50,865 nt of DNA, taken from the sequence record NC_048202.1; one strand, 5' to 3'. The translations under genes were made by a program, and so were the position numbers. Of the stretch, positions 1 to 50,865 are shown one piece after another. Every line of letters begins with the position of its first letter. Position 1 is the stretch's first letter. Source of the DNA: Escherichia phage vB_EcoS_swan01. The notes beneath the pieces are model-generated. The model did not search any database. It was not told the origin of the DNA and saw nothing but the letters and a program-made list of their open reading frames with translations.

Positions 1-127
1 CAAAAAGCATCAACCTTGCCCACACTGCGGCGGTAAGGATCGTTTTAGATGGACTGATAAGCTAAATGAAGAGGGCGACGGCGGCGCGATCTGCAACGTG
101 TGCGGCAACGACACGGGGATCGGTTGG
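1..127. repeat. terminal direct repeat, identical to 50739..50865
   Basis: exact 127-bp duplication of window start and end. Confidence 0.9.
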
Positions 128-12390: not shown

Positions 12391-13102
12391 ATTTCAGATC
12401 CTTATGTCGGCAAATTTTTACAGTGTGCTCCTGATACCATCCAGAATACAAGTCAATGCGAGATAGCTTTCCAAACGCATGATGTAATAGCTGATTGTTA
12501 CCCAAATAAATCCCCGCATGATTCCAGACTGGCGATGATAGCTGCATAATCACCATATCACCAGGTTTTGGAGGCTCGTTAGTTTCAATAAATCCCTCTT
12601 TCAAATAATTATCCTGGTAAAGATTTTCACCATATTCTGACTTCCACCACTCGTAAGGTTTTCGGAAGTCATTCAATACTACTCCGTGCTGTTTATGCCA
12701 TGCCATGATAAGACCCCAGCAATCGAACGACCCCAGCGACCACGGGCGACCGATAAGCGGCCTCTCCTGCGGCTCGACAATTCTCATATCACCTTCGGGC
12801 CATGAAACTATAATCCACGATACACCCATTTCATCGCACATACATGAGTCGTGCGCGCTCGGTATCGTGCTAGCACCATCCCCGCAATGGGAATGCACCA
12901 CCGCGATTAATTCGCCTTTGTCGAGCGATTCAGCGTATTCTACGGCGTCCATTTCAAAATGATTTTCTGGATCGTCATGCACGTTGGTTATGCGGTGATA
13001 TTTCTGTACCCGTGACTTTTGAGTTATGACGCCGCAAGCCTCTTTAGGGTATTCCTCTTTAACGTGCTGCATTATTTCAAGTTTAATTTTTGCACTAATC
13101 AT
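12371..13102 (-). CDS. tail assembly protein (lambda K-like, JAMM/MPN plus NlpC/P60-like)
   Basis: HSHxxxxxSxxD JAMM-like motif (VVHSHCGDGASTIPSAHD) and a Cys/His C-terminal domain; ATGA overlap with the L-like gene. Confidence 0.7.
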   Translation of the reverse strand: MISAKIKLEIMQHVKEEYPKEACGVITQKSRVQKYHRITNVHDDPENHFEMDAVEYAESLDKGELIAVVHSHCGDGASTIPSAHDSCMCDEMGVSWIIVSWPEGDMRIVEPQERPLIGRPWSLGSFDCWGLIMAWHKQHGVVLNDFRKPYEWWKSEYGENLYQDNYLKEGFIETNEPPKPGDMVIMQLSSPVWNHAGIYLGNNQLLHHAFGKLSRIDLYSGWYQEHTVKICRHKDLKYDIESN

Positions 13103-29177: not shown

Positions 29178-29408
29178 TCATTCCCTGTCGAAAGCGTTCC
29201 CCCAACGTCCGCGCAAGTAACCACATAGCCAAATGAATTGAGTGATCGTCAACATTGGCGCGATTGGCTGGTAGTGTTCTGCAATGATGCCCTTCATTAC
29301 TTCATCAACATACTTCCCGCGCTTTTCCACATCCGCTTTCATTGCCTCGCCGCACTTTTTAGCCTGGCGTTTAGCTGCGTTGAATTGCGCCTCGTTCATG
29401 CCGAACAT
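29178..29408 (-). CDS. hypothetical protein
   Basis: start at MFGMNEAQ with GGGGAGAGGA RBS inside track ORF 29178..29429. Confidence 0.5.
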   Translation of the reverse strand: MFGMNEAQFNAAKRQAKKCGEAMKADVEKRGKYVDEVMKGIIAEHYQPIAPMLTITQFIWLCGYLRGRWGNAFDRE

Positions 29409-29536
29409 CAGTATCCTCTCCCCTTCCATTCTTCCGCAAGTTTGAAATAGTTCATAGCTTCTTCTACATCTCCGCGCTCAAGTGCTTCCTCCTGCTTCTC
29501 TTTGCACCATTGCGAGGGTTGTTTGTACTCATCCAT
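29408..29536 (-). CDS. small hypothetical protein (42 aa, below the ORF-track cutoff)
   Basis: ATG with AAGGTGA RBS; stop overlaps the next start (TGATG coupling). Confidence 0.35.
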   Translation of the reverse strand: MDEYKQPSQWCKEKQEEALERGDVEEAMNYFKLAEEWKGRGY

Positions 29537-29606
29537 TAAATCACCTTACCAGAAAAATAGCTCGTTAGAATGCGATTTAGGCGCTCTAACGGCTATGCGT
29601 TTTTAA

Positions 29607-29921
29607 TTAAAAACCGTCGAGAATCTCTCGAAAGTTGTTTAGCGTCTTAACTTTGGCCTTATCCCACGTTACAGATCCTGCATCTTCCCACGGGGAACCA
29701 GGGCCGTGATTTGTCATATCATCAATCAAGCAAGAGATCTCATCAATAACAACATCTTTTAAATGCTCGCGGTACTCAATATCTTCTACAGGCTCAAAAG
29801 CCTGAATGACACCGCCTAAAACCTGTTGCTGTGCCTTTGCCTTGTCCAAATCATCATGGATGAAACGATGCTCTTTCTTGTTCTCGTTAGTTCCGATTTG
29901 GTAGTAGTGAATATAAATCAT
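29607..29921 (-). CDS. hypothetical protein
   Basis: 104-aa ORF in a tightly packed leftward operon. Confidence 0.5.
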   Translation of the reverse strand: MIYIHYYQIGTNENKKEHRFIHDDLDKAKAQQQVLGGVIQAFEPVEDIEYREHLKDVVIDEISCLIDDMTNHGPGSPWEDAGSVTWDKAKVKTLNNFREILDGF

Positions 29922-30151
29922 AAACCTGATTCCTCCATAGTCTCGTTTATGCGCTTCCAGTCTTCAATAGCTTTCTGGATGTATCCAGCCTCGTTGCGCC
30001 ATGCGGCAGTTTCTGCCGCTCGCGTTGGTGCTGGTGTAAGTTGACGGCAAATCTGATCCGCAACTTCACCCATAGCGCCTTCCATACCAAAGCCAGAAAT
30101 GTAGCGCATCACTTGATATGCTTGCTTCTCTGAAAGGTTAATCGTGATCAT
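29918..30151 (-). CDS. hypothetical protein
   Basis: start at MITINLSEKQ; overlapping stop/start with neighbours. Confidence 0.45.
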   Translation of the reverse strand: MITINLSEKQAYQVMRYISGFGMEGAMGEVADQICRQLTPAPTRAAETAAWRNEAGYIQKAIEDWKRINETMEESGL

Positions 30152-30360
30152 TCTTCTACTACCTCGCATTCGTCATGGTTAACACTAATATTGTCGCCAG
30201 CCTTGATAAACTCGCTGTTGCGCGGCGCAATAACACAATAAGATCCGTCACTGAAATGTCCGTCAACTTCCAGCACATCACCAACAACCAAGCCACATTG
30301 CTCAAGAGTGATTGATCCGTCGCCGTTGATAGTGTCGATTTTGGTGATTTTGATTTTCAT
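30148..30360 (-). CDS. hypothetical protein
   Basis: 70 aa; first gene downstream of the motif promoter at 30393..30438. Confidence 0.5.
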   Translation of the reverse strand: MKIKITKIDTINGDGSITLEQCGLVVGDVLEVDGHFSDGSYCVIAPRNSEFIKAGDNISVNHDECEVVEE

Positions 30361-30392
30361 TGCGCTTTCCTCTGTTTCGCTTCAATAAGGGC

Positions 30393-30438
30393 ACTTTACC
30401 AAATGCCCTTGCGGAAGTTTTAACAAAAAGTGCTATTA
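30393..30438 (-). promoter_or_regulatory. motif promoter-like element (AATAGCACTTTTTGTTAAAA, 22 nt, TAAAGT)
   Basis: conserved motif immediately after the stop of 30436..30726, with -10-like hexamer at canonical spacing inside an inverted repeat. Confidence 0.55.
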
Positions 30439-30726
30439 ACTCAGATAGTAAAGCTCATCGCGCGCGAAGCCGTCAAAATCTCGCTGTGTCAGCGGTCGAT
30501 CCTCTCGCGCCGCTTCCTCTATCATGTTGATCAAAAAATCGTTCATCACCCCTAGTCCGCCATCCGGCATATAGCAAGCTGCGAAAGCTCGCGCCCATGA
30601 ACGAGTATTTTTGAATCCGGCGCGCTTCATTGTGATTGGCGAGTGTTTAGAGTCGTTCCACTTGTTACACTGCGCGATGTTTTCAAAAGCGTTAACCAGT
30701 AGTTTGCGGTAAGTTTTGTTTGCCAT
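30436..30726 (-). CDS. hypothetical protein
   Basis: 96-aa ORF. Confidence 0.5.
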   Translation of the reverse strand: MANKTYRKLLVNAFENIAQCNKWNDSKHSPITMKRAGFKNTRSWARAFAACYMPDGGLGVMNDFLINMIEEAAREDRPLTQRDFDGFARDELYYLS

Positions 30727-30737
30727 TTCATATCCCC

Positions 30738-30920
30738 TTATTTTTGTTTAAGCCCCATCAGCATCTTGCGCACACCATCCTTTTTCCCGTCAGAGTAGCC
30801 AGCAATTGAACCAGCAGCAAACATCATCAAGTTGCCCCAAAAGGCCATAATGCCCTCATAGTTAATGGTTAAATGGCTGCCTAAAAGGATCAGAAAAAGA
30901 ATAATAACACCAGTTTTCAT
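30738..30920 (-). CDS. small membrane protein
   Basis: start at MKTGVIILFLILL with GAGGTGA RBS; two hydrophobic segments. Confidence 0.5.
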   Translation of the reverse strand: MKTGVIILFLILLGSHLTINYEGIMAFWGNLMMFAAGSIAGYSDGKKDGVRKMLMGLKQK

Positions 30921-30927
30921 TTTCACC

Positions 30928-31176
30928 TCAGTAACAATCATTAACGTGAATCAGCACGGAAAAACGACACTTGCGTAAGCGGTGGCGCTTCTTGACGTAC
31001 ATATAAGCATCGCTGTAATACTTAAATTCAGTGGCAATGATGCCGAAAAAGTCGTCTGTAACATAGTGCCAATTGCCGCCTAAGCTGCGTCGCTGCACAT
31101 GATAAGTAGAACAGTCGCGGCAAAATACGATCCGGTATTCCGGCTTAAACAGTCGTTTCAATGCGTTAAAAACCAT
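30928..31176 (-). CDS. hypothetical protein (Cys-containing)
   Basis: 82-aa ORF. Confidence 0.45.
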   Translation of the reverse strand: MVFNALKRLFKPEYRIVFCRDCSTYHVQRRSLGGNWHYVTDDFFGIIATEFKYYSDAYMYVKKRHRLRKCRFSVLIHVNDCY

Positions 31177-31275
31177 AGTAGCGCCCTCATGCTATAAAGA
31201 AAAAGTAGCATTGATAATACCGCAATCATTGCGGAATGAAAATCAAAAGGTGGCTTAGGATTCGTTGCGTTATTG

Positions 31276-31677
31276 TTATTTCCCAGCATTGCGCGCAATC
31301 CCCTTATACATGCCGTAAAAATCATCGCCAGGCTTTTTGAACTTGATCGCATTTCGCGCAAGTCGGCGCATACGTCGCGCATCGTATCTCGCTCTCTGAA
31401 ATGGTGTTTTCATTGCCTTAACATGACGACCGAGATGATCGCTGATTCTCTTAAGCTCAATCAAAACTCCTTGAGTCGCCACTACGCAATAATTATCAAA
31501 GCCAATACGGCGAGTAATGATATAGCCATTATTGATGCGCGGACGGCAAAAGTCACCACTAACACCACGATAAATACTATCCACCGCAACAACCTGGCCC
31601 TTGCTAACGCCACAATATTTATCTGCCCAGGTTACGCGAAATTTTGTTCCAACGCGAATGTCGTTTAACTCCACCAT
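31276..31677 (-). CDS. hypothetical protein
   Basis: start at MVELNDIRVG with GAGAGGAAAC RBS, about 30 nt downstream of the motif promoter. Confidence 0.55.
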   Translation of the reverse strand: MVELNDIRVGTKFRVTWADKYCGVSKGQVVAVDSIYRGVSGDFCRPRINNGYIITRRIGFDNYCVVATQGVLIELKRISDHLGRHVKAMKTPFQRARYDARRMRRLARNAIKFKKPGDDFYGMYKGIARNAGK

Positions 31678-31707
31678 GATTGTTTCCTCTCGTTGATTGG
31701 TGTTTGC

Positions 31708-31753
31708 ATTATAGCGAGGCATTGCGCCCCGCGTTTAGCAATTCGTGCTATTT
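31708..31753 (-). promoter_or_regulatory. motif promoter-like element (AAATAGCACGAATTGCTAA, 22 nt, TATAAT)
   Basis: motif overlaps the TAG stop of the kinase gene; perfect TATAAT at canonical spacing. Confidence 0.6.
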
Positions 31754-32338
31754 AATCTGTGTGTGCTTCCATTTGACAGCATTGACGATCTCGTTTACAG
31801 CCAGTTCCGGCTTTCCGTCCTGCAAGTGGAAGTCATAGTGATGGATTCGATAGTGATAACCGCTCAGGTCAATGTAGTCTCTCGAATCGCCAGCAAACGT
31901 GAAGCCGTCGCGATGCAATCGGCAAATATGCACCTCATGCCCTGCCTTAACAAGCGGCTTGACTTCTTCGGGGAATCCTCCATCGCTGATCACAACCGCT
32001 AAATCTCGGTACATCTCGTGAATCTCTTCAACCATTCGACGCCCGAAATAGTGATCCCCAAAGACTGGCTTCATTACATCCTCGCTAATCCAGATCATGA
32101 ATTGTCGAGGTGACTTGCCGCCTAAGATAACTTGAGGCTTTTCTTTTTGCTCTCGGTCGTTGTACAGGTCAATAAACTCATCATATCGAGTCGGGCCAAG
32201 CATGGAAAACGCAATATCGAACATCGGCTGTTTGAATGACGCCTTAACCGCTGGGTAACGATGGCCCGTTAGGTAAGCTGCAATAGTGTCCTTCCCGCAA
32301 CCTGGCGGCCCATTAAGGATGATAATGTCTCGTTTCAT
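31748..32338 (-). CDS. P-loop kinase (dNMP kinase-like)
   Basis: N-terminal Walker A GPPGCGKDT; about 196 aa. Confidence 0.55.
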   Translation of the reverse strand: MKRDIIILNGPPGCGKDTIAAYLTGHRYPAVKASFKQPMFDIAFSMLGPTRYDEFIDLYNDREQKEKPQVILGGKSPRQFMIWISEDVMKPVFGDHYFGRRMVEEIHEMYRDLAVVISDGGFPEEVKPLVKAGHEVHICRLHRDGFTFAGDSRDYIDLSGYHYRIHHYDFHLQDGKPELAVNEIVNAVKWKHTQIK

Positions 32339-32340
32339 GA

Positions 32341-32490
32341 TTAATGATCTCCATAGCGAAAAATCGCATTAAATTTTTTCCCGCGCTTCTTGTCTTCGTT
32401 GCGCTTCTTGCGTTGCTTTTTCACAAGCTCCACATGCTCATCGTACCCGCGACGCTTCTTTTTGGTAATGATTTTTTCAAAGTTACGCAT
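32341..32490 (-). CDS. small basic protein (49 aa, below the ORF-track cutoff)
   Basis: ATG with AGGGGGAGA RBS; Lys/Arg-rich; stop 2 nt before the kinase ATG. Confidence 0.5.
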   Translation of the reverse strand: MRNFEKIITKKKRRGYDEHVELVKKQRKKRNEDKKRGKKFNAIFRYGDH

Positions 32491-32549
32491 CGTCTCCCCC
32501 TTTAGGTTTTCTCAACATGGCGCACTGCATGAATGCGCCATAGCAAGAA

Positions 32550-32735
32550 TCACCACTCAAATTTCTGTTTGTCTCTGATGATCTCGTAAATTGCTAACCA
32601 CACCCAAACAAACCAGAAAGCGAGAACGATTTTATCGTCCTTGTCTGTCGCGCCAGAATATTTCACAAACGCGCGGAACGTGAATAAGCCTGAAATGTAA
32701 AGAAAAACAACCAAAAAAGCAAGTAACAAAATCAT
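32550..32735 (-). CDS. small membrane protein
   Basis: 61 aa with two hydrophobic helices. Confidence 0.5.
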   Translation of the reverse strand: MILLLAFLVVFLYISGLFTFRAFVKYSGATDKDDKIVLAFWFVWVWLAIYEIIRDKQKFEW

Positions 32736-32995
32736 TTATTTTCTCCCTCTACTACCAGAGTGTAAAGCAGAACAGGCTCTACCATGTCGCGGCGGCGCGG
32801 CTCTCGTGGCGAATCGGGCCATGCGCATTTCCCGTTTGACACAATATGGCCTACCAGGTCACTAATTTTTGATATTCCATCTCGACGGATAACGTTGTAC
32901 CCAATATCCTTGCCGTCAATAGAATGGATAGCAAAGAAGCTAGGCGCGCCGTCGATAATGTCTACAGCTTTAAAAAACTCGATCTTGTTAGCCAT
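32732..32995 (-). CDS. hypothetical protein
   Basis: 87-aa ORF downstream of the motif promoter at 33027..33073. Confidence 0.5.
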   Translation of the reverse strand: MANKIEFFKAVDIIDGAPSFFAIHSIDGKDIGYNVIRRDGISKISDLVGHIVSNGKCAWPDSPREPRRRDMVEPVLLYTLVVEGENK

Positions 32996-33026
32996 GATTT
33001 AATCCTCGTTTGTTGTTGATGGGCTT

Positions 33027-33073
33027 ACTATACAGCAAGCCCGATGATCTGTTTTTTGCAAAAAGTGCTATTT
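33027..33073 (-). promoter_or_regulatory. motif promoter-like element (AAATAGCACTTTTTGCAAAAAA, then TATAGT)
   Basis: motif overlaps the TAG stop of the small ORF 33068..33229; -10-like hexamer inside an inverted repeat; leader CATCAACAACAAACGAGGA. Confidence 0.55.
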
Positions 33074-33229
33074 ACGAACGCATAACGCTGTTACATCCTT
33101 CCCACTATCTGACATGTGGAGAATAACTTGCTTTCGCGCTTCCTGGCATCTTGATTCGCCGTGGAACTCCTGCGACTCAATAGCTGCGGAGTTGTAACTT
33201 GTGACAAAGATTAAAAGCAACCAAGTCAT
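33068..33229 (-). CDS. small hypothetical protein (53 aa, below the ORF-track cutoff)
   Basis: ATG overlaps the stop of the HAD-like gene (ATGA); GGAG RBS; hydrophobic N-terminus; stop TAG lies inside the conserved motif. Confidence 0.45.
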   Translation of the reverse strand: MTWLLLIFVTSYNSAAIESQEFHGESRCQEARKQVILHMSDSGKDVTALCVRK

Positions 33230-33765
33230 TTTAAACACTCCACGCCGTGAGATTTCAGGTGAGCGTGTGGCTTGTCGTATTCCGTGACCTGATAGGTTGT
33301 GATTCCCAGGCTGCGGAAGTGCTTAACAACGTTCGGCGAATCGTCAAAGGCGCAAACAATATTGTCCAGGCCAATAGCGCGCAATGCTTCTTCTTTAATA
33401 ACCGTATCCTTTCGGTTGTCCTCCTGGCGGCGCATGATGATTTCGTCAAACTTCACGCCGTTCTCATTCAACCATTTGCATGTTTCATAGCGCACTTCGT
33501 CGCTGCGTCCGGTCAAGATGACGATGGCAAATCCCGACACCCACAAACCGTTAATAACCGCGATCGTGCTTTTAATCGGTGAATCTCCGGCGGCGGCCCT
33601 GTTAAATTCGCTCCACGATTCCGTAAGGTGTAAGTTTTCAGTTGGCAGCAAATGCAAACGATGCGATCCGTCCGATAGTGTGCCGTCCAGGTCAACGATA
33701 ACAATCGGCTTGCTGGTGATTAATTCGTACTTCTTGCCCCATAGTTCGAAAGTGTATTTTTTCAT
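33226..33765 (-). CDS. HAD-superfamily phosphatase-like protein
   Basis: VIVDLDGTLSDGSHR contains the DxDGT motif of HAD hydrolases (as in PNK 3'-phosphatase or nucleotidase domains). Confidence 0.55.
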   Translation of the reverse strand: MKKYTFELWGKKYELITSKPIVIVDLDGTLSDGSHRLHLLPTENLHLTESWSEFNRAAAGDSPIKSTIAVINGLWVSGFAIVILTGRSDEVRYETCKWLNENGVKFDEIIMRRQEDNRKDTVIKEEALRAIGLDNIVCAFDDSPNVVKHFRSLGITTYQVTEYDKPHAHLKSHGVECLK

Positions 33766-33776
33766 TATAAAACCTA

Positions 33777-33998
33777 TCAATTAAAATGGATTTGCTTGTA
33801 TTCTATTTCATCTGCCAGATCATTTAACTTATCTGCCAGCTTGCGCACTTGGTCAACGGTAAGTATCGACCTAAAATCCGGCCTACGCCCACCCTCAAAC
33901 GTGCCATCAATAAAAACTCGATCGCCAAACTTGTATACATCAATCGCGTCGCCGTGGTTATCAGTAAACCTGTGCTTGACGCGCTTATTTGTTTTCAT
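33777..33998 (-). CDS. hypothetical protein
   Basis: 73-aa ORF. Confidence 0.45.
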   Translation of the reverse strand: MKTNKRVKHRFTDNHGDAIDVYKFGDRVFIDGTFEGGRRPDFRSILTVDQVRKLADKLNDLADEIEYKQIHFN

Positions 33999-34230
33999 CT
34001 TTCACTTCCTCAAATTCCGCGTCTGTAATCTGCTCAAACTCGGCAACTACGTTTTCAAACGCAACGATCTCAGTTCCATTCTCGCCGTTAAGGTAAAACT
34101 TGTATCCGTTGTTGCAGTGAACATGATAAGAGTGACCATCTCTTGTGTCCTTCTTGCCCTGGTACACCTTGCCAGGCGTGAAGAATGGTCTATTGCTCTT
34201 AACGCAAAGAAAATTGTTTTCAATGATCAT
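33985..34230 (-). CDS. small protein, member of a paralogous family
   Basis: aligns by eye with 34227..34448 (LCVxxN...F.PG.xY...FYLNGExGT...AEFE). Confidence 0.5.
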   Translation of the reverse strand: MIIENNFLCVKSNRPFFTPGKVYQGKKDTRDGHSYHVHCNNGYKFYLNGENGTEIVAFENVVAEFEQITDAEFEEVKDENK

Positions 34231-34448
34231 TGTTTCACTTCCTCAAATTCAGCCATTACCATAGCGTGTGCCATAACCTTAGTGCCTTCGCCGCCGTTCA
34301 GGAACATGCGATGCCCCTTACTATTGCTCACGTAAAAAGATCCGGTTGATGTTTTCAGTTTTTGCGCCGTATAGATTTCGCCAGGCTTGAACATACCAGA
34401 GCAAGCATAGTTAACGGAAACGCATTTCATCTTCTTTTTAATGTACAT
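34227..34448 (-). CDS. small protein, member of a paralogous family
   Basis: start at MYIKKKMKCV with AAGGAG RBS; paralog of 33985..34230. Confidence 0.5.
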   Translation of the reverse strand: MYIKKKMKCVSVNYACSGMFKPGEIYTAQKLKTSTGSFYVSNSKGHRMFLNGGEGTKVMAHAMVMAEFEEVKQ

Positions 34449-34477
34449 CGTTTTATCTCCTTCGTTGAAAGTAGGGC

Positions 34478-34524
34478 CATTATACCTGGCCCCACATTTG
34501 AGTTTTAACAATTCGTGCTATTTA
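34478..34524 (-). promoter_or_regulatory. motif promoter-like element (AAATAGCACGAATTGTTAAAA, ~21 nt, TATAAT)
   Basis: motif directly follows the TAA stop of 34522..35415; perfect TATAAT within an inverted repeat; about 30-nt leader to the next ATG. Confidence 0.6.
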
Positions 34525-35415
34525 CACTTTGACCTTCCACTTAACCATCGTTCCGCGCTTAATGCTGATCTCACCTGCAATCGTCCGGTTTTTATAGCCG
34601 CCGTAGTGAAGCAGAAGGATAACAACGTCATCATGAATCTCGATCGTCTTTGGCGTAGCCGTTACTTCATACCAGGTGCCGTCATCAAGCCGGACTCCTT
34701 TTAGAGTGGCTGCAACTGGCATATCTTCAATTGCGCCCTGCGTTACGATTTCTTGATTTGCAAATGCGCTCTTGTCAATGCGCCAGCCTCCAGGCGCTTT
34801 CATTTCGGCAGCCGCTTTGTGGATCTCATCGCCAATGATTTTTTGAATTGACGTCTTACCGCCGCCGAATGGAGTTTCTCCAAACAAGTGTTTTGTAATG
34901 TCTTCCACGTAGTACACTTTATCCTCTTCGTTGTGCGGATTGTATCTATTGTGACCGTTGACAAAGAAATCAACTTTCAACCCTGATTTCGTACCATCGC
35001 TATAAACGCCATTTTCGCGCGATGTGTAGCGAATCGTTGACTTACCAGTCGTGCGGAACGTGATCGGATACTTGATATTGTCCAGACTTAAGCACCACAG
35101 CTTTTTATAGTCGCATGTTTTCATCTCGACCATCGGAATCTCTGCGCGTTCCGGTGAGCGCACTGGCAACACCTGGCCTTTATATGGCTTGTAGTGGAAG
35201 CTGGTATATCCTGGCATTGCATAGCCATAGTCTTTAAGTGCGTTGTACTGCGTATTGTGCGCATCAATAAAGTGTTCAATCTCCATTGTTGATGGGCTTA
35301 GTTTGTCGCTATTCATATCAACCTTATGGCATGTTTTTTCATCGGTAAAAATGTAATGACCAATGCCGCGAGATTCGAAGGTGATCGGGAATTTAATGTC
35401 AGCAAGTTTTAACAT
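34522..35415 (-). CDS. hypothetical protein with internal repeat
   Basis: 297 aa; two similar segments (IKFPITFESRG... and IKYPITFRTTG...). Confidence 0.5.
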   Translation of the reverse strand: MLKLADIKFPITFESRGIGHYIFTDEKTCHKVDMNSDKLSPSTMEIEHFIDAHNTQYNALKDYGYAMPGYTSFHYKPYKGQVLPVRSPERAEIPMVEMKTCDYKKLWCLSLDNIKYPITFRTTGKSTIRYTSRENGVYSDGTKSGLKVDFFVNGHNRYNPHNEEDKVYYVEDITKHLFGETPFGGGKTSIQKIIGDEIHKAAAEMKAPGGWRIDKSAFANQEIVTQGAIEDMPVAATLKGVRLDDGTWYEVTATPKTIEIHDDVVILLLHYGGYKNRTIAGEISIKRGTMVKWKVKV

Positions 35416-35430
35416 GGTGATTTCTCCTAA

Positions 35431-35613
35431 TTACTTAATTCTAACTTCAACGTCAATATCTGCGTTAGGGGCGAATAGCTGCGCCTTGCCATTTACACGA
35501 ATTGTAAGAATGTTCTCTTTGCGGCAGTTATCCAGCACTAGGCGATATTTGCCAGCAAACTTAACCATCATTCCCGGCTTGACTTCTCTCATTTTGATGA
35601 TCTTATCCATCAT
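35431..35613 (-). CDS. hypothetical protein
   Basis: 60 aa, AAAGGGG RBS; preceded by a ~200-nt untranslated GC-rich leader. Confidence 0.45.
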   Translation of the reverse strand: MMDKIIKMREVKPGMMVKFAGKYRLVLDNCRKENILTIRVNGKAQLFAPNADIDVEVRIK

Positions 35614-35815
35614 TAACCCCTTTCACATAAATAACCGTTTAATCTTTGGTGACGGGCTTCACTTCGTCGGTAGCCTCAGTTCAGTGACCTATCTAGCGTT
35701 CTGCCTGGTGGCGAGTGTGATAGTTCTGGCCTCACGGTTGGGAATCCTGACACTTCGATCAAGCCCCTGCGTCGCTCCTCTCCCGCAGCAATCCTTGCCG
35801 CCCGTCTATGTGTGT
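35614..35815 (-). ncRNA. candidate structured 5' leader / noncoding RNA
   Basis: about 200 nt between a motif promoter and the next RBS with no credible ORF; GC-rich with long-range complementarity (GACGGGC...GCCCGUC). Confidence 0.3.
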
Positions 35816-35861
35816 ATTATGCCTGGTTATCGTTTTTGAGTTTTAACAAAAAGTGCTATTT
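35816..35861 (-). promoter_or_regulatory. motif promoter-like element (AAAATAGCACTTTTTGTTAAAA, 22 nt, CATAAT)
   Basis: motif overlaps the TAG stop of the lipoprotein gene; -10-like hexamer at canonical spacing. Confidence 0.6.
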
Positions 35862-36128
35862 TGTCTCGACGGTCATATGTTCTGTCTTCGTGCCTTTGCC
35901 ATTGCTTTTCGACACTTCCCAGCTAGTCGTGCCCTTACAGTTGGTGAAGTAAACAGTGCGATCGTCATAGAATCGGTAAACGGTGCAACCGTCAGCGGTG
36001 AATAGCTCCCTTACGCTGTAGTCATCGCCAGGGTTAGCCATCTGCACATTGCCAACATGCGCGCCATCTTCTTTGCATCCGGTCAGGAATGCCATTGCCG
36101 CCAAAACGCTGATTAATGCCTTTTTCAT
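35856..36128 (-). CDS. lipoprotein
   Basis: start at MKKALISVLAAMAFLTGC (signal peptide plus lipobox); ATGA overlap with the upstream gene. Confidence 0.55.
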   Translation of the reverse strand: MKKALISVLAAMAFLTGCKEDGAHVGNVQMANPGDDYSVRELFTADGCTVYRFYDDRTVYFTNCKGTTSWEVSKSNGKGTKTEHMTVETK

Positions 36129-36589
36129 TGCTCTTCCTCTTTGATGATTTCGCGGATCATATCCTGGTAGCGGCTTACGCCCTCGCAAGCCCCAGCCAGT
36201 TTATCCCCTTCCAGGTCCACGATGTTCGGGATTGCTGCCAGTATGCGATCGGCAAACTTTTTGATCGCCCTTGCCTTGATGGCTGGCAATTCTTCTGGTG
36301 TGATGATTTTCCTTTTCGATTCGCGGACCATGCGGAAAACGTAAAATTTATCATCTTCCGTTTCCTCTACCTTGATACTTACCCGACCTGCGGCCCTTAC
36401 TTCTGGAACGCGGTTGATAATGGTCCGGCTGTAGGATGAACTGCGCGTGATCTTGTAGCAGTCGTCACCGCTTAACATTCCGGCCAGGTCAATTAGTGAC
36501 ATTTTATACTCTTCAATATCGCCACTAGCCAGGCGGCGACCAAGCTCGCGAAGCCAATCGCAATAGTCCTTAGTGGTCTTCTGTTCCAT
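36125..36589 (-). CDS. hypothetical protein (first gene of a leftward operon)
   Basis: start at MEQKTTKDY with GGAGGAAAGGA RBS, about 30 nt downstream of a consensus sigma70 promoter. Confidence 0.55.
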   Translation of the reverse strand: MEQKTTKDYCDWLRELGRRLASGDIEEYKMSLIDLAGMLSGDDCYKITRSSSYSRTIINRVPEVRAAGRVSIKVEETEDDKFYVFRMVRESKRKIITPEELPAIKARAIKKFADRILAAIPNIVDLEGDKLAGACEGVSRYQDMIREIIKEEEQ

Positions 36590-36620
36590 TTCCTTTCCTC
36601 CAGTTGTTGACTGTTGGCGC

Positions 36621-36649
36621 ATTATAAAAGCTATTTGGTGCGTGTCAAT
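36621..36649 (-). promoter_or_regulatory. consensus sigma70 promoter (TTGACA-N17-TATAAT)
   Basis: perfect -35 and -10 hexamers with 17-bp spacer read on the minus strand, upstream of gene 36125..36589. Confidence 0.65.
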
Positions 36650-36789
36650 GTTTTTGTTGTATTCAAAACGTTACCAATATCGAAAAACTACAAAATCATG
36701 CGCAAGTTATTGATTTCAGGGCTGTTATTTTTCTGTTCACGCTGTTAACGCAATCCGCCGGAAAAAGTATATATACATATGCAATCCGC

Positions 36790-36960
36790 CGCGCGCGCAA
36801 CTATCCATATATACCCACACACAACCACACCATAACCAACAAAAAGCACTGTAACAGTGAGAACAAAAAGAAAACATTATAGATATATATAAATAAATAA
36901 TCTTTATTTTCAATGTATTATAGAGGGATTTTTTTGTTTTTTTCGTTTTCGCTACACCGG
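36790..36960. repeat. AT/CA-rich intergenic element, related to the one at ~6640-6800
   Basis: shared strings ccacacacaaccacacc...aacaaaaag and ataaataaataa; direct repeat gcaatccgccg x2; inside a 660-bp non-coding region. Confidence 0.5.
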
Positions 36961-37083
36961 AAAACCGCGCGGAAACACGCCGCCTGAAATCGGTAACAGG
37001 GGTGAACAAAAGACAACAACCGCTGACAGCCAGGCGGAAAAGTGAGGCAAGAGGGGAAGGTTTCACTATCTCCCCTGCAACCA

Positions 37084-37180
37084 ATGATTAAACGTGATTA
37101 CTTTTCTCATCAAATTTGCAAAGGCAATCATCATTTTGACGTGATTTGATTACGAATGATTACTTTTGATTATTTCGATC
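37084..37180. repeat. iteron-like direct and inverted repeats of ATGATT/TGATTAC
   Basis: at least 5 copies of (A)TGATTAC(TTTT) within ~100 bp just upstream of the first rightward motif promoter. Confidence 0.5.
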
Positions 37181-37201
37181 ACAATCCTGGTGCTAACCGT
37201 C

Positions 37202-37247
37202 AAATAGCACTTTTTGTTAAAAATCAGGCCGCCTGATCGGGTACATT
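37202..37247 (+). promoter_or_regulatory. motif promoter-like element (AAATAGCACTTTTTGTTAAAA, 22 nt, TACATT)
   Basis: first promoter of the rightward small-gene block; leader CATCGAAACGAACC precedes the RBS. Confidence 0.6.
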
Positions 37248-37282
37248 ACACACATCGAAACGAACCGCTCAGGAGATAGTAA

Positions 37283-37555
37283 ATGAACATCAGCAAAACC
37301 ACTTTCAATTTCGCTAAGCGTCACGGTCTGGAACTGACTGTTGAAGATTTTGGCGATGTTCTGCAACTCTGCATTTGGGAAGCAGATAACGATTGCGAGT
37401 GGCTTTGCTCTTATCGTATCAACTACGATTGCTTGACCTGGCACGGCAATATCTATCTGCCGCAAGAAGTGAAAGAAGAATTGCCAGCGACTATCAACAA
37501 CGAAGTTTTCTTGCGCCAGGTGCTGAAATTTATCAGTAAGGAGATCAAAAAATAA
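37283..37555 (+). CDS. hypothetical protein
   Basis: 90 aa, AGGAGA RBS. Confidence 0.55.
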   Translation: MNISKTTFNFAKRHGLELTVEDFGDVLQLCIWEADNDCEWLCSYRINYDCLTWHGNIYLPQEVKEELPATINNEVFLRQVLKFISKEIKK

Positions 37556-37821
37556 TGGCGGTGATTACCGAAAATGATTTGGATCTGGCGGAGGCGTTTT
37601 GCAGGGCCGCCAGGGCTAACCTGGATGTGACCACTAAATTTCTTCCGGCGCGACCACTCTTTTCGTGTGCGCCCGTGAATAAACCGACTCGCGTAATGAT
37701 CGTGATTGAAGGTGATGGCCTGTACGCTGAAAAGACGTTCCACATCAGCAACATTAAGGGCCGTGCTGATTTTATCAATGATGTTTGCTTATTGCAGGAG
37801 AAGAAAAAATGTTGGATGTGA
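37555..37821 (+). CDS. hypothetical protein
   Basis: TAATG overlap with upstream gene. Confidence 0.5.
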   Translation: MAVITENDLDLAEAFCRAARANLDVTTKFLPARPLFSCAPVNKPTRVMIVIEGDGLYAEKTFHISNIKGRADFINDVCLLQEKKKCWM

Positions 37822-38018
37822 TCAAGAAAGCACATGAGATGGGTATGGATGTTTTAATCACTGACGCGCGACGCTATAACCGCTCAATGCCTGAAAATAT
37901 GGTTGTAGTCATCGTGCATAATCTTAAGTTTGAATGCCGCGCAATTTTTGAGAAGCAGGATAAAGAGTCTCAACGCTGTTTTATCAACGAAGTTTGCGAT
38001 CTGTATGGGAGGATCTGA
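37809..38018 (+). CDS. hypothetical protein
   Basis: start at MLDVIKK with AGGAGA RBS. Confidence 0.45.
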   Translation: MLDVIKKAHEMGMDVLITDARRYNRSMPENMVVVIVHNLKFECRAIFEKQDKESQRCFINEVCDLYGRI

Positions 38019-38019
38019 A

Positions 38020-38232
38020 ATGTTCAAGAAATTGTTATGGCTGTACCGCTCCAGGCGCAACAAGGGATATTGCAGGGGCACGGAAAGGAATCTTGACCGC
38101 GCTTATAAATACTGCCTGTTGTTGCTCGCCAGTCTGCCGGAAAACAGGAAGGAATATATTGCGCTGCGAGAAATAACAATGCGGATATATAGTTACCGCA
38201 ATAAACTATACGTCTTTAAATCTTTACGATAA
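38020..38232 (+). CDS. hypothetical protein
   Basis: start at MFKKLLW with GGGAGGA RBS. Confidence 0.45.
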   Translation: MFKKLLWLYRSRRNKGYCRGTERNLDRAYKYCLLLLASLPENRKEYIALREITMRIYSYRNKLYVFKSLR

Positions 38233-38244
38233 GGAGTAATAACC

Positions 38245-38508
38245 ATGAAAATTAATGCACCTATTCCAGTTAAGCGCAAAGCACGTTTGCTAAATAACGG
38301 ATGTTACGCCCTGCGGCCCGCATTTAAGGATCGCACATTTCCGGTTATCGTTAACGTGTCTCACGTAAGCCGTAGCGGAAACCTGGTATTCGTTAAAGGT
38401 GAAGATCTGACGGCACTTGGATTCTATGGCGGTGTTCACGGCGAACCGCTCGGATTCTGGCTTGTAAATCCGTTAACTGGAGAGCGTGAAATCGAATTTC
38501 TGGACTAA
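38245..38508 (+). CDS. hypothetical protein
   Basis: 87 aa, AAGGAG RBS. Confidence 0.55.
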   Translation: MKINAPIPVKRKARLLNNGCYALRPAFKDRTFPVIVNVSHVSRSGNLVFVKGEDLTALGFYGGVHGEPLGFWLVNPLTGEREIEFLD

Positions 38509-38552
38509 ATAGCACTTTTTGTTAAAAACGATGCGCTGCTGATTGGTATAGT
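38507..38552 (+). promoter_or_regulatory. motif promoter-like element (AAATAGCACTTTTTGTTAAAA, 22 nt, TATAGT)
   Basis: motif starts inside the TAA stop of 38245..38508; -10-like hexamer inside an inverted repeat. Confidence 0.6.
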
Positions 38553-38583
38553 AAGCGCATCGACAACAAACGAGGATTTAAAG

Positions 38584-38781
38584 ATGGAAAATCAGGTTGA
38601 TGTTAAAGTTGTTAAGCGCGACAAGTCTCACGAAAAAGGTTTGTTTAAGAAAGGTGCTGAAATCACCATTGACCTTGATGATATGGAGGCGTACCACTCA
38701 GGGCTAACTTGGAATGTTCGCAAATGTGAAAACGGCCTGTTCAAGTTAAATGGCTTTGAAACATACATGGAGATCATCTAA
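38584..38781 (+). CDS. small protein (possible member of the small paralog family)
   Basis: 65 aa. Confidence 0.5.
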   Translation: MENQVDVKVVKRDKSHEKGLFKKGAEITIDLDDMEAYHSGLTWNVRKCENGLFKLNGFETYMEII

Positions 38782-38993
38782 TGGCAAAGCAATTAAAACT
38801 TAAATGCGTAGAAACTTATAACTCAACTTGGAGATTTACGCGCGGAAAAGAATACCCGCTAATGGGAAATCTCAAAGAAGATCCTCATGTAATTTCAGAT
38901 AATGGCCTTCACCTTTATTTAATGGAATACAACGATGGCTATATTGGTGCTGGTGTTCCAGGCCATAAATTTAAGATGAAAAATAAGAAATGA
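38781..38993 (+). CDS. small protein, member of a paralogous family
   Basis: LKCVETYNSTWRFTRGKEY...LHLYLMEYNDG resembles 34227..34448 and 33985..34230. Confidence 0.5.
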   Translation: MAKQLKLKCVETYNSTWRFTRGKEYPLMGNLKEDPHVISDNGLHLYLMEYNDGYIGAGVPGHKFKMKNKK

Positions 38994-39101
38994 GGCTATT
39001 TATTTTCAAAAATGCCTGGATGGTAGCGGTTGCAAATGACCATTACGGCGGCGACGGAAAAAGAGCACGACGCCATTCATATTTCAATTGAGGATATTTA
39101 A

Positions 39102-39329
39102 ATGAAAGCAAAAGTTTTAAACATTATGTCAACTATTGACGCTCATCACCGCGTGGCTGTAAAACTTGATAAGTCTTGTGGAATTAGCCAAATCACTATC
39201 ACCGAGGGCAAAGGCGGCTATCTTATCGGTATCCATCCAGGCGGTAAGGTGCGCAAATACAATAAAGATCAGTTAAAAGAATTACTGGAAGAAAACGCTT
39301 TCTATATTCAAAGTTGGCGTGCTCTTTAA
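39102..39329 (+). CDS. hypothetical protein
   Basis: 75 aa, followed by a terminator. Confidence 0.5.
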   Translation: MKAKVLNIMSTIDAHHRVAVKLDKSCGISQITITEGKGGYLIGIHPGGKVRKYNKDQLKELLEENAFYIQSWRAL

Positions 39330-39334
39330 TTAAT

Positions 39335-39358
39335 ATGGCGGCGTTTTGCCGCCTTTTA
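39335..39358 (+). terminator. rho-independent terminator
   Basis: ggcggcg-tttt-gccgcc hairpin plus T-run. Confidence 0.65.
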
Positions 39359-39370
39359 AATGAGGTGGAA

Positions 39371-39487
39371 ATGATAGATAAGGCTATTGATTTCTTTTTT
39401 TATTCGATTATTGGCGCGGTTGGCTTTTTGGTTACTGCTGCTGGCCTGGCTATTATATTGGCTGTTATTAAGGGGATTATGCGATGA
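39371..39487 (+). CDS. small hydrophobic protein (38 aa, below the ORF-track cutoff)
   Basis: ATG with GAGGTGG RBS; predicted single transmembrane helix; stop overlaps the next ATG (ATGA). Confidence 0.45.
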   Translation: MIDKAIDFFFYSIIGAVGFLVTAAGLAIILAVIKGIMR

Positions 39488-39708
39488 GTCAAGACGGATT
39501 TTTTGAGCGCCTTCAAATGGCAGAAGATGCCGGACTAAATAAAGAGGCGGCGCTTGAAGTGGCATATAAAATTAAGAGTCTTGATGAGGCTTTAGGTGAT
39601 ATGGATATGGATCTTGAATCAAGCGCAATATTTGCAGATCCCACTATGATTGTTAATGATTGTGGATGCGATTTCGATCCTGGTTGTCCGCGCTGTTTTC
39701 CGTTTTGA
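39484..39708 (+). CDS. hypothetical protein
   Basis: 74 aa, acidic, C-terminal CGCDFDPGCPRC. Confidence 0.5.
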   Translation: MSQDGFFERLQMAEDAGLNKEAALEVAYKIKSLDEALGDMDMDLESSAIFADPTMIVNDCGCDFDPGCPRCFPF

Positions 39709-50625: not shown

Positions 50626-50865
50626 ATGAATACTGAAAACTTTATGACCTATCAGAAAGAAGATGTTTTGCCATATATGAAGGGGTTATGGCGTGAAGCA
50701 CTACAAAGCATTTGCGGACTGCATAGCGATGTTTTCAACAAAAAGCATCAACCTTGCCCACACTGCGGCGGTAAGGATCGTTTTAGATGGACTGATAAGC
50801 TAAATGAAGAGGGCGACGGCGGCGCGATCTGCAACGTGTGCGGCAACGACACGGGGATCGGTTGG
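50626..50865 (+). CDS. primase-like protein, N-terminal part (continues at 2..817 across the terminal duplication)
   Basis: ATG at 50626; zinc-ribbon CPHCGGKDRFRW...CNVCGNDTGIGW; ORF runs off the window end into the 127-bp duplicated segment. Confidence 0.6.
   Translation, partial: MNTENFMTYQKEDVLPYMKGLWREALQSICGLHSDVFNKKHQPCPHCGGKDRFRWTDKLNEEGDGGAICNVCGNDTGIGW
50739..50865. repeat. terminal direct repeat, identical to 1..127
   Basis: exact 127-bp duplication of window start and end. Confidence 0.9.

What the first reader, a model, noticed from the sequence alone, without database searches (positions are those of the whole stretch)
29408..39487. Four likely genes below the 60-aa ORF-track cutoff
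32341..32490 (49-aa Lys/Arg-rich protein, AGGGGGAGA RBS), 33068..33229 (53 aa, ATGA-coupled, stop inside the motif), 39371..39487 (38-aa single-helix membrane peptide, GAGGTGG RBS, ATGA-coupled) and 29408..29536 (42 aa, TGATG-coupled) all have good ribosome-binding sites and fill otherwise unexplained gaps. Their coupling to neighbours argues that they are translated.
Basis: seen in the sequence. Interest (0 to 1): 0.45.

Follow-up and report, generated by a model that had tools for sequence, protein, structure and literature searches.

The report
Four real, already-annotated small phage genes
The four short reading frames are genuine, conserved protein-coding genes of a T1-like coliphage, but near-identical copies are already annotated as hypothetical proteins in many public phage genomes, so the finding is correct and ordinary.

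Summary
The window is a Warwickvirus-like (Drexlerviridae) coliphage, 98.5% identical to phage Phunderstruck.

All four are under protein-level purifying selection. In related phages the frame stays open, synonymous changes exceed non-synonymous ones (pooled pN/pS 0.31-0.60), and the other five frames collect stop codons. The start codons, Shine-Dalgarno sites and gene coupling are also conserved.

All four are already annotated as "hypothetical protein" in GenBank relatives.

New detail from this work:
- The 49-aa basic protein belongs to the T7 gp1.1 family.
- The 42-aa acidic protein belongs to the T7 gp1.8 family and is predicted to be a helical hairpin.
- The 53-aa protein belongs to a very large phage family (PHROG 5579/3766). 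It is modelled as a compact beta-beta-alpha-beta domain, which weakens a signal-peptide reading.
- At least two more conserved small genes were missed: 38990..39091 and 31158..31289.

No function is known for any of them.

The parts
32341..32490 (-). o1: 49-aa highly basic protein of the T7 gp1.1 family (Phage_1_1). It lies directly upstream of the 196-aa dNMP-kinase-like gene.
   Evidence: The ORF is seen. It scores 18.4 bits against Pfam PF08200 (cut-off 21), while relatives score 22.4-25.0 bits. hhalign against T7 gp1.1 gives 91.8% probability. pN/pS is 0.54 with no stops in frame. Its position upstream of the kinase gene is conserved.
32493..32501 (-). Shine-Dalgarno site AGGGGGAGA of o1
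   Evidence: Read. Pairing energy is -10.7 kcal/mol, the 0.5th percentile of all ATGs in the window. An SD site is kept in most relatives, but is weak (-2.7) in L007 and L008.
33068..33229 (-). o2: 53-aa protein of a large phage family (PHROG 5579/3766). Its ATG overlaps the TGA of the polynucleotide kinase gene at 33226..33229.
   Evidence: The ORF is seen. PHROG match E 3.5e-9. 730 cluster representatives match in the 1.84-billion-protein library. E21, F22, C28, A31 and C50 are invariant. AlphaFold2 gives a beta-beta-alpha-beta model at pLDDT 90. pN/pS is 0.50.
33053..33071 (-). Copy of the 19-nt box ATAGCACTTTTTGCAAAAA, which contains the TAG stop of o2. A hairpin follows at 33021..33042 with a -10-like TATAGT in its loop.
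   Evidence: 17 copies in the window against 0.06 expected by chance.
39371..39487 (+). o3: 38-aa single-helix membrane peptide. Its stop overlaps the ATG of the next gene (39484..39708) as ATGA.
   Evidence: The ORF is seen. It matches 101 phage records. GRAVY is 1.63. pN/pS is 0.60 with no stops in frame. The upstream extension is closed in relatives.
39362..39368 (+). Shine-Dalgarno site GAGGTGG of o3
   Evidence: Read. Pairing energy is -7.3 kcal/mol, 3rd percentile. The TTG start used in one GenBank record gives +1.9.
39337..39360 (+). Terminator-like hairpin GGCGGCGTTTTGCCGCC followed by a T run, immediately upstream of o3. It lies inside the longer GenBank versions of the gene.
   Evidence: Found. 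A 1-nt indel here in L003 breaks the long frame without affecting the 38-aa protein.
29408..29536 (-). o4: 42-aa acidic protein of the T7 gp1.8 family (PHROG 1312), predicted to be a helical hairpin. Its TGA overlaps the ATG of the next gene (TGATG, 29406..29410).
   Evidence: The ORF is seen. PHROG match E 1.5e-17. hhalign against T7 gp1.8 gives 96.5% probability, E 9.6e-10. It matches 341 phage records, including Autographiviridae gene 1.8. AlphaFold2 pLDDT is 87. pN/pS is 0.31.
29541..29547 (-). Shine-Dalgarno site AAGGTGA of o4
   Evidence: Read. An SD-like site is conserved in all relatives.
38990..39091 (+).
   Evidence: PHROG 32259, E 3.3e-20. pS is 0.6-1.0 against pN 0.11-0.23 versus divergent relatives. 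It is annotated in phage Tuinin.
31158..31289 (-). Additional conserved small gene: a 43-aa single-transmembrane peptide. It is hidden inside a 74-aa ORF call.
   Evidence: Homologues at 41-72% identity in 14 relatives that align without gaps; two further gapped matches are 51% and 37%. pS is 0.38-1.04 against pN 0.17-0.36. It is annotated in phage Tuinin only.

Best explanation
The four ORFs are real protein-coding genes in the two divergently oriented gene blocks, made mostly of small accessory genes, of a T1-like (Warwickvirus) coliphage.

**How they are expressed (inferred).** They sit in tightly packed gene arrays and look polycistronic. Each has its own Shine-Dalgarno site, and each is tightly linked to a neighbour on at least one side: by a stop/start overlap (ATGA for o2 and o3, TGATG for o4) or, for o1, a 2-nt gap.

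**The products (family and fold evidence, functions inferred).**
1. **o1, 49 aa.** A strongly basic member of the T7 gp1.1 family. It is conserved as the gene immediately upstream of the dNMP-kinase-like gene. It most likely binds nucleic acid or an acidic host protein.
2. **o4, 42 aa.** An acidic member of the T7 gp1.8 family. It folds as a single TPR-like helix-turn-helix hairpin. It most likely binds a host or phage protein.
3. **o2, 53 aa.** A member of a very large phage-specific family. It is predicted to form a compact beta-beta-alpha-beta mini-domain in which the hydrophobic N-terminus is the first of the three predicted strands. It most likely works as a small, possibly oligomeric, cytoplasmic binder rather than as a secreted peptide.
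4. **o3, 38 aa.** A single-pass inner-membrane peptide, found here only among close relatives of this phage. It is coupled to a 74-aa Cys-containing acidic protein and a Dcm-like methylase.

**Shown:** existence of the ORFs, frame-specific purifying selection, conserved translation signals, family membership, and predicted folds.

**Inferred:** actual translation, and all biochemical roles.
For: **Identity of the window and prior annotation.** The window is 98.5% identical to phage Phunderstruck. All four ORFs are annotated there and in phage Tuinin.

**Conservation.**
- tblastn finds the proteins in 68, 49, 101 and 341 phage records.
- 14, 6, 7 and 28 distinct protein variants were recovered, all with open frames and an ATG at the same place.
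- pS exceeds pN in almost every comparison with the window. The exceptions are two near-identical pairs, each separated by a single non-synonymous change.
- Examples: o4 against L003 has 8 synonymous and 0 non-synonymous changes. o2 against L006 has 10 and 2.
- The proposed frame has the lowest pN/pS of the six frames and is the only one free of stops.
- Shine-Dalgarno sites and coupling are conserved in relatives.
- Codon usage matches that of the window's long genes.
- A neighbouring ORF used as negative control (30302..30394) shows stops in homologues.

**Family and fold.**
- o1: all 11 family members hit PF08200, four of them above the 21-bit cut-off. The N-terminus MRNFEK is identical to T7 gp1.1.
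- o4: hhalign against T7 gp1.8 gives 96.5%. Homologues carry the precomputed Pfam family PF26839.
- o4 structure: a helical hairpin at pLDDT 87. It has weak TPR-like sequence and fold resemblance.
- o2: 730 family representatives. The model has pLDDT 90. A distant member sits among small genes of a phage contig that also encodes a family-A DNA polymerase and an SNF2-type helicase.
Against: - There is no direct evidence of translation. No ribosome profiling or proteomics exists for this phage.
- The window's own o1 scores 18.4 bits on PF08200, below the 21-bit cut-off.
- pN/pS for o3 (0.60) is only modestly lower than in the other frames (0.68-0.87), from 8 sequences. Hydrophobic composition alone constrains such a sequence.
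- One o4 homologue (L010) carries an in-frame stop, and T7 lineages lose gene 1.8 during laboratory adaptation (PMC2680503). The genes are therefore dispensable at least under some conditions.
- T7 gp1.1 is still described as having no known function (PMC7064336), and the one paper found that tested a gene 1.8 change saw little effect (PMC2680503). The family assignments therefore give no mechanism.
- Fold searches returned nothing significant.
Confidence: 0.9

Rival explanations
1. The ORFs are chance open frames in non-coding spacers between real genes. Their ribosome-binding-like sequences are coincidental.
For: The ORFs are short (38-53 aa), and the window contains many spurious ORFs of this size. 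One search lists 154 ORFs of at least 30 aa in 12 kb. Some GenBank relatives do not annotate them (rows marked 'none').
Against: The frame stays open across relatives as divergent as 33-68% protein identity. The proposed frame has the lowest pN/pS and is the only one without stops. Start codons and Shine-Dalgarno sites are conserved. Codon usage is gene-like. A true chance ORF nearby fails the same test.
Confidence: 0.02
2. The sequences are conserved because they carry cis-acting DNA or RNA elements, not because a protein is made. Candidates are the promoter box at the o2 stop and the terminator next to o3.
For: The o2 stop lies inside a 17-copy box. A terminator-like hairpin abuts o3. Frame discrimination is weakest for o3.
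Against: The elements lie at the ORF edges, not across them. Substitutions concentrate at third codon positions: minimum changes per codon position are 45/45/81, 51/31/72, 21/10/25 and 43/23/70. Amino-acid motifs are kept while the DNA diverges to near-saturation at synonymous sites, with pS up to 0.8-0.95.
Confidence: 0.03
3. o3 is really the longer protein annotated in GenBank: 57 aa from the TTG at 39314, or 50 aa from the ATG at 39335.
For: Phunderstruck gp47 is annotated as 174 nt and the Tuinin CDS as 153 nt. The frame is open upstream in the window and in its closest relatives.
Against: - The TTG and the upstream ATG have no Shine-Dalgarno pairing (+1.9 and -1.5 kcal/mol, against -7.3 for the 38-aa start).
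- The extension runs through a terminator-like hairpin.
- In L003, whose protein is 97% identical, a 1-nt indel closes the extension.
- In divergent relatives only 0-6 codons are open upstream.
- Protein similarity in divergent relatives starts at residue 4 of the 38-aa form.
Confidence: 0.06
4. o2 is an exported peptide. Residues 1-16 would be a Sec signal peptide cleaved after Ser-Ala-Ala, releasing a 37-aa periplasmic peptide held by a Cys28-Cys50 disulfide. It could then act in the envelope, for example in superinfection exclusion.
For: - The hydrophobic stretch starts right after the initiator Met.
- Small residues sit at -3 and -1 (S-A-A, G-E-A, G-T-A) in the close family.
- The two cysteines are invariant across the whole family.
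- AlphaFold2 does not model signal-peptide cleavage.
Against: - AlphaFold2 places residues 2-10 as a confident beta-strand (mean pLDDT 93 for residues 1-10) inside a compact beta-beta-alpha-beta fold.
- Most members have no Lys or Arg before the hydrophobic stretch, and several have an acidic residue there instead (METW..., MSEY...).
- The small residues at -3 and -1 are not kept in the wider family (VNV, SDV, NST, GQS).
- The hydrophobic run is only 8-10 residues long.
- The invariant Cys, Ala and Phe residues could equally be core-packing residues between the helix and the sheet.
Confidence: 0.35

Closest known systems
Bacteriophage T7 gene 1.1 protein (Pfam PF08200, Phage_1_1)
   Same: Both are small: 42 aa in T7 and 49 aa here. 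Both are very basic. The N-terminus MRNFEK is identical. All 11 Drexlerviridae variants hit the Pfam model, and four exceed the cut-off. hhalign gives 91.8% probability.
   Different: Similarity is confined to about the first 17-37 residues, and the C-terminal halves differ. The window's own score is 18.4 bits, below the 21-bit cut-off. The genomic context also differs: in T7 the gene lies between the RNA polymerase gene and gene 1.2, while here it is always upstream of a dNMP-kinase-like gene. The function of T7 gp1.1 is unknown (PMC7064336).
Bacteriophage T7 gene 1.8 protein (PHROG 1312; Pfam PF26839 on homologues)
   Same: Both are small acidic proteins: 48 aa in T7 and 42 aa here. They share S-x-W-C near the N-terminus and L-W-x-x-R-G at the C-terminus. 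hhalign gives 96.5% probability, E 9.6e-10. tblastn reaches gene 1.8 of T7-like phages.
   Different: Identity to T7 gp1.8 is 35%, with a 7-residue gap in T7. T7 carries a 14-residue N-terminal extension. In T7 the gene overlaps the end of the nucleotide kinase gene 1.7; here it lies about 2.2 kb downstream of an unrelated kinase. Function is unknown, and the gene is non-essential in T7 (PMC2680503).
PHROG 5579 / PHROG 3766 (uncharacterised phage proteins of about 55 aa)
   Same: o2 matches over its full length (E 3.5e-9 and 8.4e-7). 28 of the 29 aligned sequences, which include the window's own, hit PHROG 5579. All share the invariant E-F...C..A...C pattern.
   Different: No function, no solved structure and no Pfam model in the copy searched. 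The window's subgroup is only 26-41% identical to most of the family.
GenBank hypothetical proteins of Warwickvirus phages: Phunderstruck gp76, gp67, gp64 and gp47 (UGO52403.1, UGO52394.1, UGO52391.1, UGO52374.1)
   Same: The proteins are 95-100% identical and sit at the same genome positions.
   Different: gp47 is annotated from an upstream TTG (57 aa) instead of the conserved ATG (38 aa). The gene downstream of o4 is annotated as 83 aa rather than the conserved 76-aa form.

Membership tests
Pfam PF08200 Phage_1_1 (T7 gp1.1) | HMM score at or above the curated gathering cut-off of 21 bits | tested here: inconclusive
   The window's protein scores 18.4 bits, E 0.003. Four Drexlerviridae homologues, one of them 77% identical to it, score 22.4-25.0 bits. 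T7 gp1.1 itself scores 53.5 bits. Membership therefore holds by transitive homology, not by the protein's own score.
Pfam PF08200 Phage_1_1 (T7 gp1.1) | Small (about 40-50 aa), strongly basic protein with the N-terminal motif MRNFEK | tested here: met
   49 aa, 19 K+R against 7 D+E, pI 10.5. M1, R2, N3, F4 and E5 are invariant in the family and identical to T7.
Pfam PF08200 Phage_1_1 (T7 gp1.1) | T7-type context: directly after the phage RNA polymerase gene and before gene 1.2 | tested here: not met
   Here the gene lies upstream of a dNMP-kinase-like gene (PHROG 139) in a phage that has no gene 1.2 neighbour. Context is not part of the Pfam definition.
T7 gp1.8 family (PHROG 1312; Pfam PF26839) | Significant full-length match to the family profile | tested here: met
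   PHROG 1312: E 1.5e-17, 64.5 bits, residues 1-42. PF26839 is precomputed on all 21 homologues, including one 98% identical to the window's protein. The local Pfam copy lacks this model, so its name could not be read.
T7 gp1.8 family (PHROG 1312; Pfam PF26839) | Detectable homology to T7 gp1.8 itself | tested here: met
   hhalign gives 96.5% probability, E 9.6e-10, over 33 aligned columns. blastp gives 35% identity. tblastn reaches annotated gene 1.8 of Salmonella phage Vi06.
Sec-type signal peptide (for o2) | Positively charged n-region before the hydrophobic core | tested here: not met
   The window's protein has no K or R before the hydrophobic run. Several family members have Glu there.
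Sec-type signal peptide (for o2) | Small residues at -3 and -1 of a conserved cleavage site | tested here: inconclusive
   The pattern is kept in the close subgroup (S-A-A, G-E-A, G-T-A) but not across the wider family. No signal-peptide predictor was available.
Single-pass membrane peptide (for o3) | One hydrophobic stretch of about 20 or more residues, flanked by charged residues | tested here: met
   Residues 8-32 are uncharged and hydrophobic, flanked by D/K at the N-terminus and K/R at the C-terminus. GRAVY is 1.63. The pattern is kept in relatives at 51-54% identity. Membrane insertion and topology cannot be tested with these tools.
TPR / Sel1-like repeat (for o4) | Significant match to a TPR profile or a TPR structure | tested here: not met
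   The best PDB sequence hits are consensus TPR proteins at E 0.045-0.25. The best fold hits are helical hairpins, TPR units among them, at E of 5 or more. This is a resemblance in shape only.

The most novel reading that the evidence does not exclude
The small proteins shared between T1-like and T7-like phages would be exchangeable host-takeover or counter-defence effectors, each with a specific host target.

Three observations are compatible with this reading:
- o1, the gp1.1 relative, is conserved as a pair with the dNMP-kinase-like gene.
- o4, the gp1.8 relative, is shared across the two phage families.
- o2 represents a very large, structurally distinct phage mini-domain family with no Pfam entry in the copy searched and no known function.

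If this is right, the T1-like copies offer a second and easier genetic system for finally assigning functions to T7 genes 1.1 and 1.8.
Probability: 0.25. Interest if true: 0.45.

Novelty: already known. Interest (0 to 1): 0.15.

Why it matters
For genome annotation the result is small but practical. A 60-aa ORF cutoff hides at least six conserved genes in this 10-kb stretch. GenBank records also disagree on whether these genes are annotated and where they start. The comparison here settles the start of o3 and of the gene downstream of o4.

Biologically, two of the proteins link the accessory gene pool of T1-like phages to T7 genes 1.1 and 1.8. T7 gp1.1 is still described as having no known function, and no function for gene 1.8 was found. 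A third protein belongs to a family with hundreds of sequence clusters and no annotation. None of this changes current understanding, so the finding is confirmed but routine.

Tried and rejected
- **Kinase as T7 gp1.7.** The 196-aa kinase next to o1 has the same length as T7 nucleotide kinase gp1.7, but there is no similarity (best E 2.8). It matches PHROG 139, dNMP kinase.
- **PDB sequence searches.** Searches for o1, o2, o4 and the o2 family profile gave nothing significant.
- **Fold searches.** The o4 and o2 models returned only generic helical hairpins and Top7-like or designed mini-proteins, none with E at or below 0.001. No function could be transferred.
- **Pfam scan of the o2 family.** No hits.
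- **PHROG scan.** No family for o3 or for the 43-aa membrane peptide.
- **Literature on gp1.1 and gp1.8.** These searches found only statements that the function is unknown, a remark on host shut-off together with Ocr (PMC7064336), and loss of gene 1.8 during laboratory adaptation (PMC2680503).
- **Genome-reduction study (PMC9825161).** I checked whether its phage seszw could be used as a T1-like relative. The text contains neither 'T1-like' nor 'Drexlerviridae', and its host is Salmonella enterica, so it was not used.
- **Literature on the 19-nt box.** A search for the sequence found nothing relevant.
- **Signal peptide in o2.** My first reading of o2 as a signal peptide plus a disulfide-bonded peptide was downgraded after the structure model and the wide family alignment.

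Full report
**What the window is.** An 11-kb stretch around the finding is 98.5% identical over its full length to Escherichia phage vB_EcoD_Phunderstruck (Drexlerviridae, Tempevirinae, Warwickvirus). It matches 375 phage records in all. The genes at 29-36.6 kb run leftward and those at 37.3-44 kb run rightward. They diverge from an intergenic region that holds a perfect TTGACA-16-TATAAT promoter match.

**Observation check.** All four ORFs are present exactly as described.
- o1, 32341..32490 (-): 49 aa, 19 K+R, pI 10.5. AGGGGGAGA lies 2 nt before the ATG. The stop is 2 nt before the ATG of the 196-aa kinase gene.
- o2, 33068..33229 (-): 53 aa. The ATG overlaps the TGA of the polynucleotide kinase gene (ATGA). 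The TAG stop is the TAG of a 19-nt box, ATAGCACTTTTTGTTAAAA. This box is "the motif" of the finding, with 17 copies in the window against 0.06 expected.
- o3, 39371..39487 (+): 38 aa with one hydrophobic helix. GAGGTGG lies 2 nt before the ATG, and the stop overlaps the next ATG (ATGA).
- o4, 29408..29536 (-): 42 aa. AAGGTGA lies 4 nt before the ATG, and the stop overlaps the next ATG (TGATG).

Anti-Shine-Dalgarno pairing energies rank at the 0.5th, 7th, 3rd and 15th percentile of all ATGs in the window. Codon-usage scores are 0.35, 0.13, 0.48 and 0.41. That is within the range of the window's long genes (0.37 +/- 0.15), and the shifted frames score negative.

- tblastn finds o1, o2, o3 and o4 in 68, 49, 101 and 341 phage records.
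- I fetched 80 IMG/VR loci around the neighbouring polynucleotide kinase gene and two annotated GenBank regions.
- These gave 14, 6, 7 and 28 distinct protein variants, down to 33-68% identity. Nearly all keep an ATG at the same position; one o4 homologue was called with a GTG one codon downstream. All keep an open frame, with one exception: a single in-frame stop in the o4 homologue of L010.
- Synonymous differences exceed non-synonymous ones in almost every comparison. The exceptions are two near-identical pairs with a single non-synonymous change. Examples: o4 against L003 has 8 and 0; o2 against L006 has 10 and 2. Median pairwise dN/dS is 0.36, 0.22, 0.49 and 0.19.
- In a six-frame control, the proposed frame has the lowest pooled pN/pS (0.54, 0.50, 0.60, 0.31). 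It is also the only frame without stops, while the other frames collect 4-70 stops.
- Shine-Dalgarno sites and the overlap or near-abutment with the neighbouring gene are kept in divergent relatives.
- A nearby chance ORF (30302..30394) used as a negative control is riddled with stops in homologues.

What remains inferred is translation itself.

**Already annotated.** Phunderstruck annotates all four as gp76, gp67, gp64 and gp47, and Tuinin annotates them too, all as "hypothetical protein". Most other relatives do the same, and a few omit one or another.

Two annotation points are settled here:
- **Start of o3.** GenBank versions of o3 are 57 aa (from a TTG) or 50 aa. Those starts lack a Shine-Dalgarno site (+1.9 and -1.5 kcal/mol), and the extension runs through a terminator-like hairpin at 39337..39360. 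The extension is closed in L003 by a 1-nt indel and is closed in all divergent relatives.
- **Gene downstream of o4.** It starts at the conserved TGATG or TAATG overlap, giving a 76-aa protein beginning MFG. The 83-aa version annotated in Phunderstruck is not the conserved form.

**What the proteins are.**

*o1.* This protein is a relative of T7 gp1.1.
- The first six residues, MRNFEK, are identical to T7 gp1.1.
- All 11 variants hit Pfam PF08200, and four exceed the 21-bit cut-off (22.4-25.0 bits). The window's own protein scores 18.4 bits.
- hhalign gives 91.8% probability.
- In relatives, o1 sits directly upstream of the dNMP-kinase-like gene (PHROG 139), or at most one small gene away. This holds even where that kinase is only 54-60% identical.

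*o4.* This protein is a relative of T7 gp1.8.
- PHROG 1312 matches at E 1.5e-17.
- hhalign against T7 gp1.8 gives 96.5% probability, E 9.6e-10.
- tblastn hits annotated gene 1.8 in T7-like phages.
- All 21 homologues carry precomputed Pfam PF26839.
- AlphaFold2 predicts two helices, 7-21 and 24-39, at pLDDT 87.
- Resemblance to single TPR units is weak and not significant.

*o2.* This protein hits PHROG 5579 and PHROG 3766.
- A profile search of 1.84 billion cluster representatives finds 730 full-length relatives of about 50-60 aa.
- E21, F22, C28, A31 and C50 are invariant.
- One distant member lies among small genes of a 42-kb phage contig that also encodes a family-A DNA polymerase and an SNF2-type helicase.
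- From sequence alone, the N-terminus looks like a signal peptide followed by a disulfide-bonded peptide.
- AlphaFold2 instead models a compact beta-beta-alpha-beta domain at pLDDT 90, with residues 2-10 as a confident strand.
- The wider family lacks a positive n-region and a conserved cleavage motif.
- I therefore favour a cytoplasmic mini-domain, at roughly 60:40 over export.

*o3.* This is a single hydrophobic helix with charged ends (GRAVY 1.63). It has no PHROG or Pfam family and was found only among close relatives of this phage.

[quoted passage not shown] Gene 1.8 is non-essential, and T7 lineages acquire knock-out mutations in it during laboratory passage (PMC2680503). Family membership therefore gives no mechanism.

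My proposal is inference from size, charge, fold and context. These are small accessory effectors:
- o1 binds nucleic acid or an acidic partner.
- o4 and o2 are protein binders.
- o3 acts in the inner membrane.

**Completeness.**
- 38990..39091 (+, 33 aa, ATGA-coupled, PHROG 32259) is the most strongly constrained small gene of the region. pS is 0.6-1.0 against pN 0.11-0.23 versus divergent relatives.
- 31158..31289 (-, 43 aa, single transmembrane segment) is also conserved.

**Verdict.** The genes are already known as annotated hypothetical proteins, and two of them belong to long-known T7 families. Interest is low.

Noticed in passing
window, 17 sites: 888, 6869, 17649, 21402, 26230, 30418, 33053, 34503, 35841, 37204, 38509, 40426, 41100, 43262, 46505, 47575, 50064: A 19-nt box, ATAGCACTTTTTGTTAAAA, occurs 17 times against 0.06 expected by chance. 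At most sites it lies between genes and points the same way as the downstream gene. About 19 nt after it (often an inverted repeat) comes a -10-like hexamer (CATAAT, TATAAT or TATAGT), and then an RBS and ATG. The TTGTTA inside the box is 22 nt from the -10 hexamer, too far for a normal sigma-70 -35 element. It therefore looks like a phage-specific promoter or activator box. Stop codons of upstream genes often fall in its 5' end. No description was found in the literature search.
   Followed up: partly
One is a 33-aa protein (PHROG 32259) coupled by ATGA to the upstream gene. The other is a 43-aa single-transmembrane peptide hidden inside a 74-aa ORF call. Both show pS well above pN.
   Followed up: yes
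window 1..127 and 50739..50865: The first and last 127 bases of the window are identical. This suggests a terminal redundancy, or an assembly overlap of a circularly permuted or circular-assembled phage genome.
   Followed up: no
L010 (IMGVR_UViG_2974632794_000001, 53145 bp), o4 homologue starting near locus position 12432: The gp1.8-like gene of this relative carries an in-frame stop at codon 15 in an otherwise conserved sequence. It is either a recent pseudogene or a sequencing error.
   Followed up: no
window 31748..32490 (-) and the equivalent regions of 18 related loci: The gp1.1-like gene is kept immediately upstream of the dNMP-kinase-like gene, or one small gene away. This holds in relatives whose kinase is only 54-60% identical. 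The two may form a functional pair.
   Followed up: partly
window 36621..36648 (-): A perfect sigma-70 consensus match (TTGACA, 16 nt, TATAAT) lies in the roughly 660-bp region between the leftward and rightward gene blocks, facing the leftward genes. Tuinin annotates three ORFs of about 35 aa in this region, which look like over-predictions. Their conservation was not tested.
   Followed up: no
window 29178..29429 (-): The gene downstream of o4 is annotated as 83 aa in Phunderstruck and 76 aa in Tuinin. Relatives conserve the 76-aa start (MFG...), which overlaps or abuts the o4 stop and has a strong Shine-Dalgarno site (-8.3 kcal/mol).
   Followed up: yes
window 1395..1546 (+): There are tandem direct repeats with a 21/63-nt period (TGC.GA.ACTGCAAAG.C.G..GCTGAA...). 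They are presumably an in-frame peptide repeat in a structural gene.
   Followed up: no
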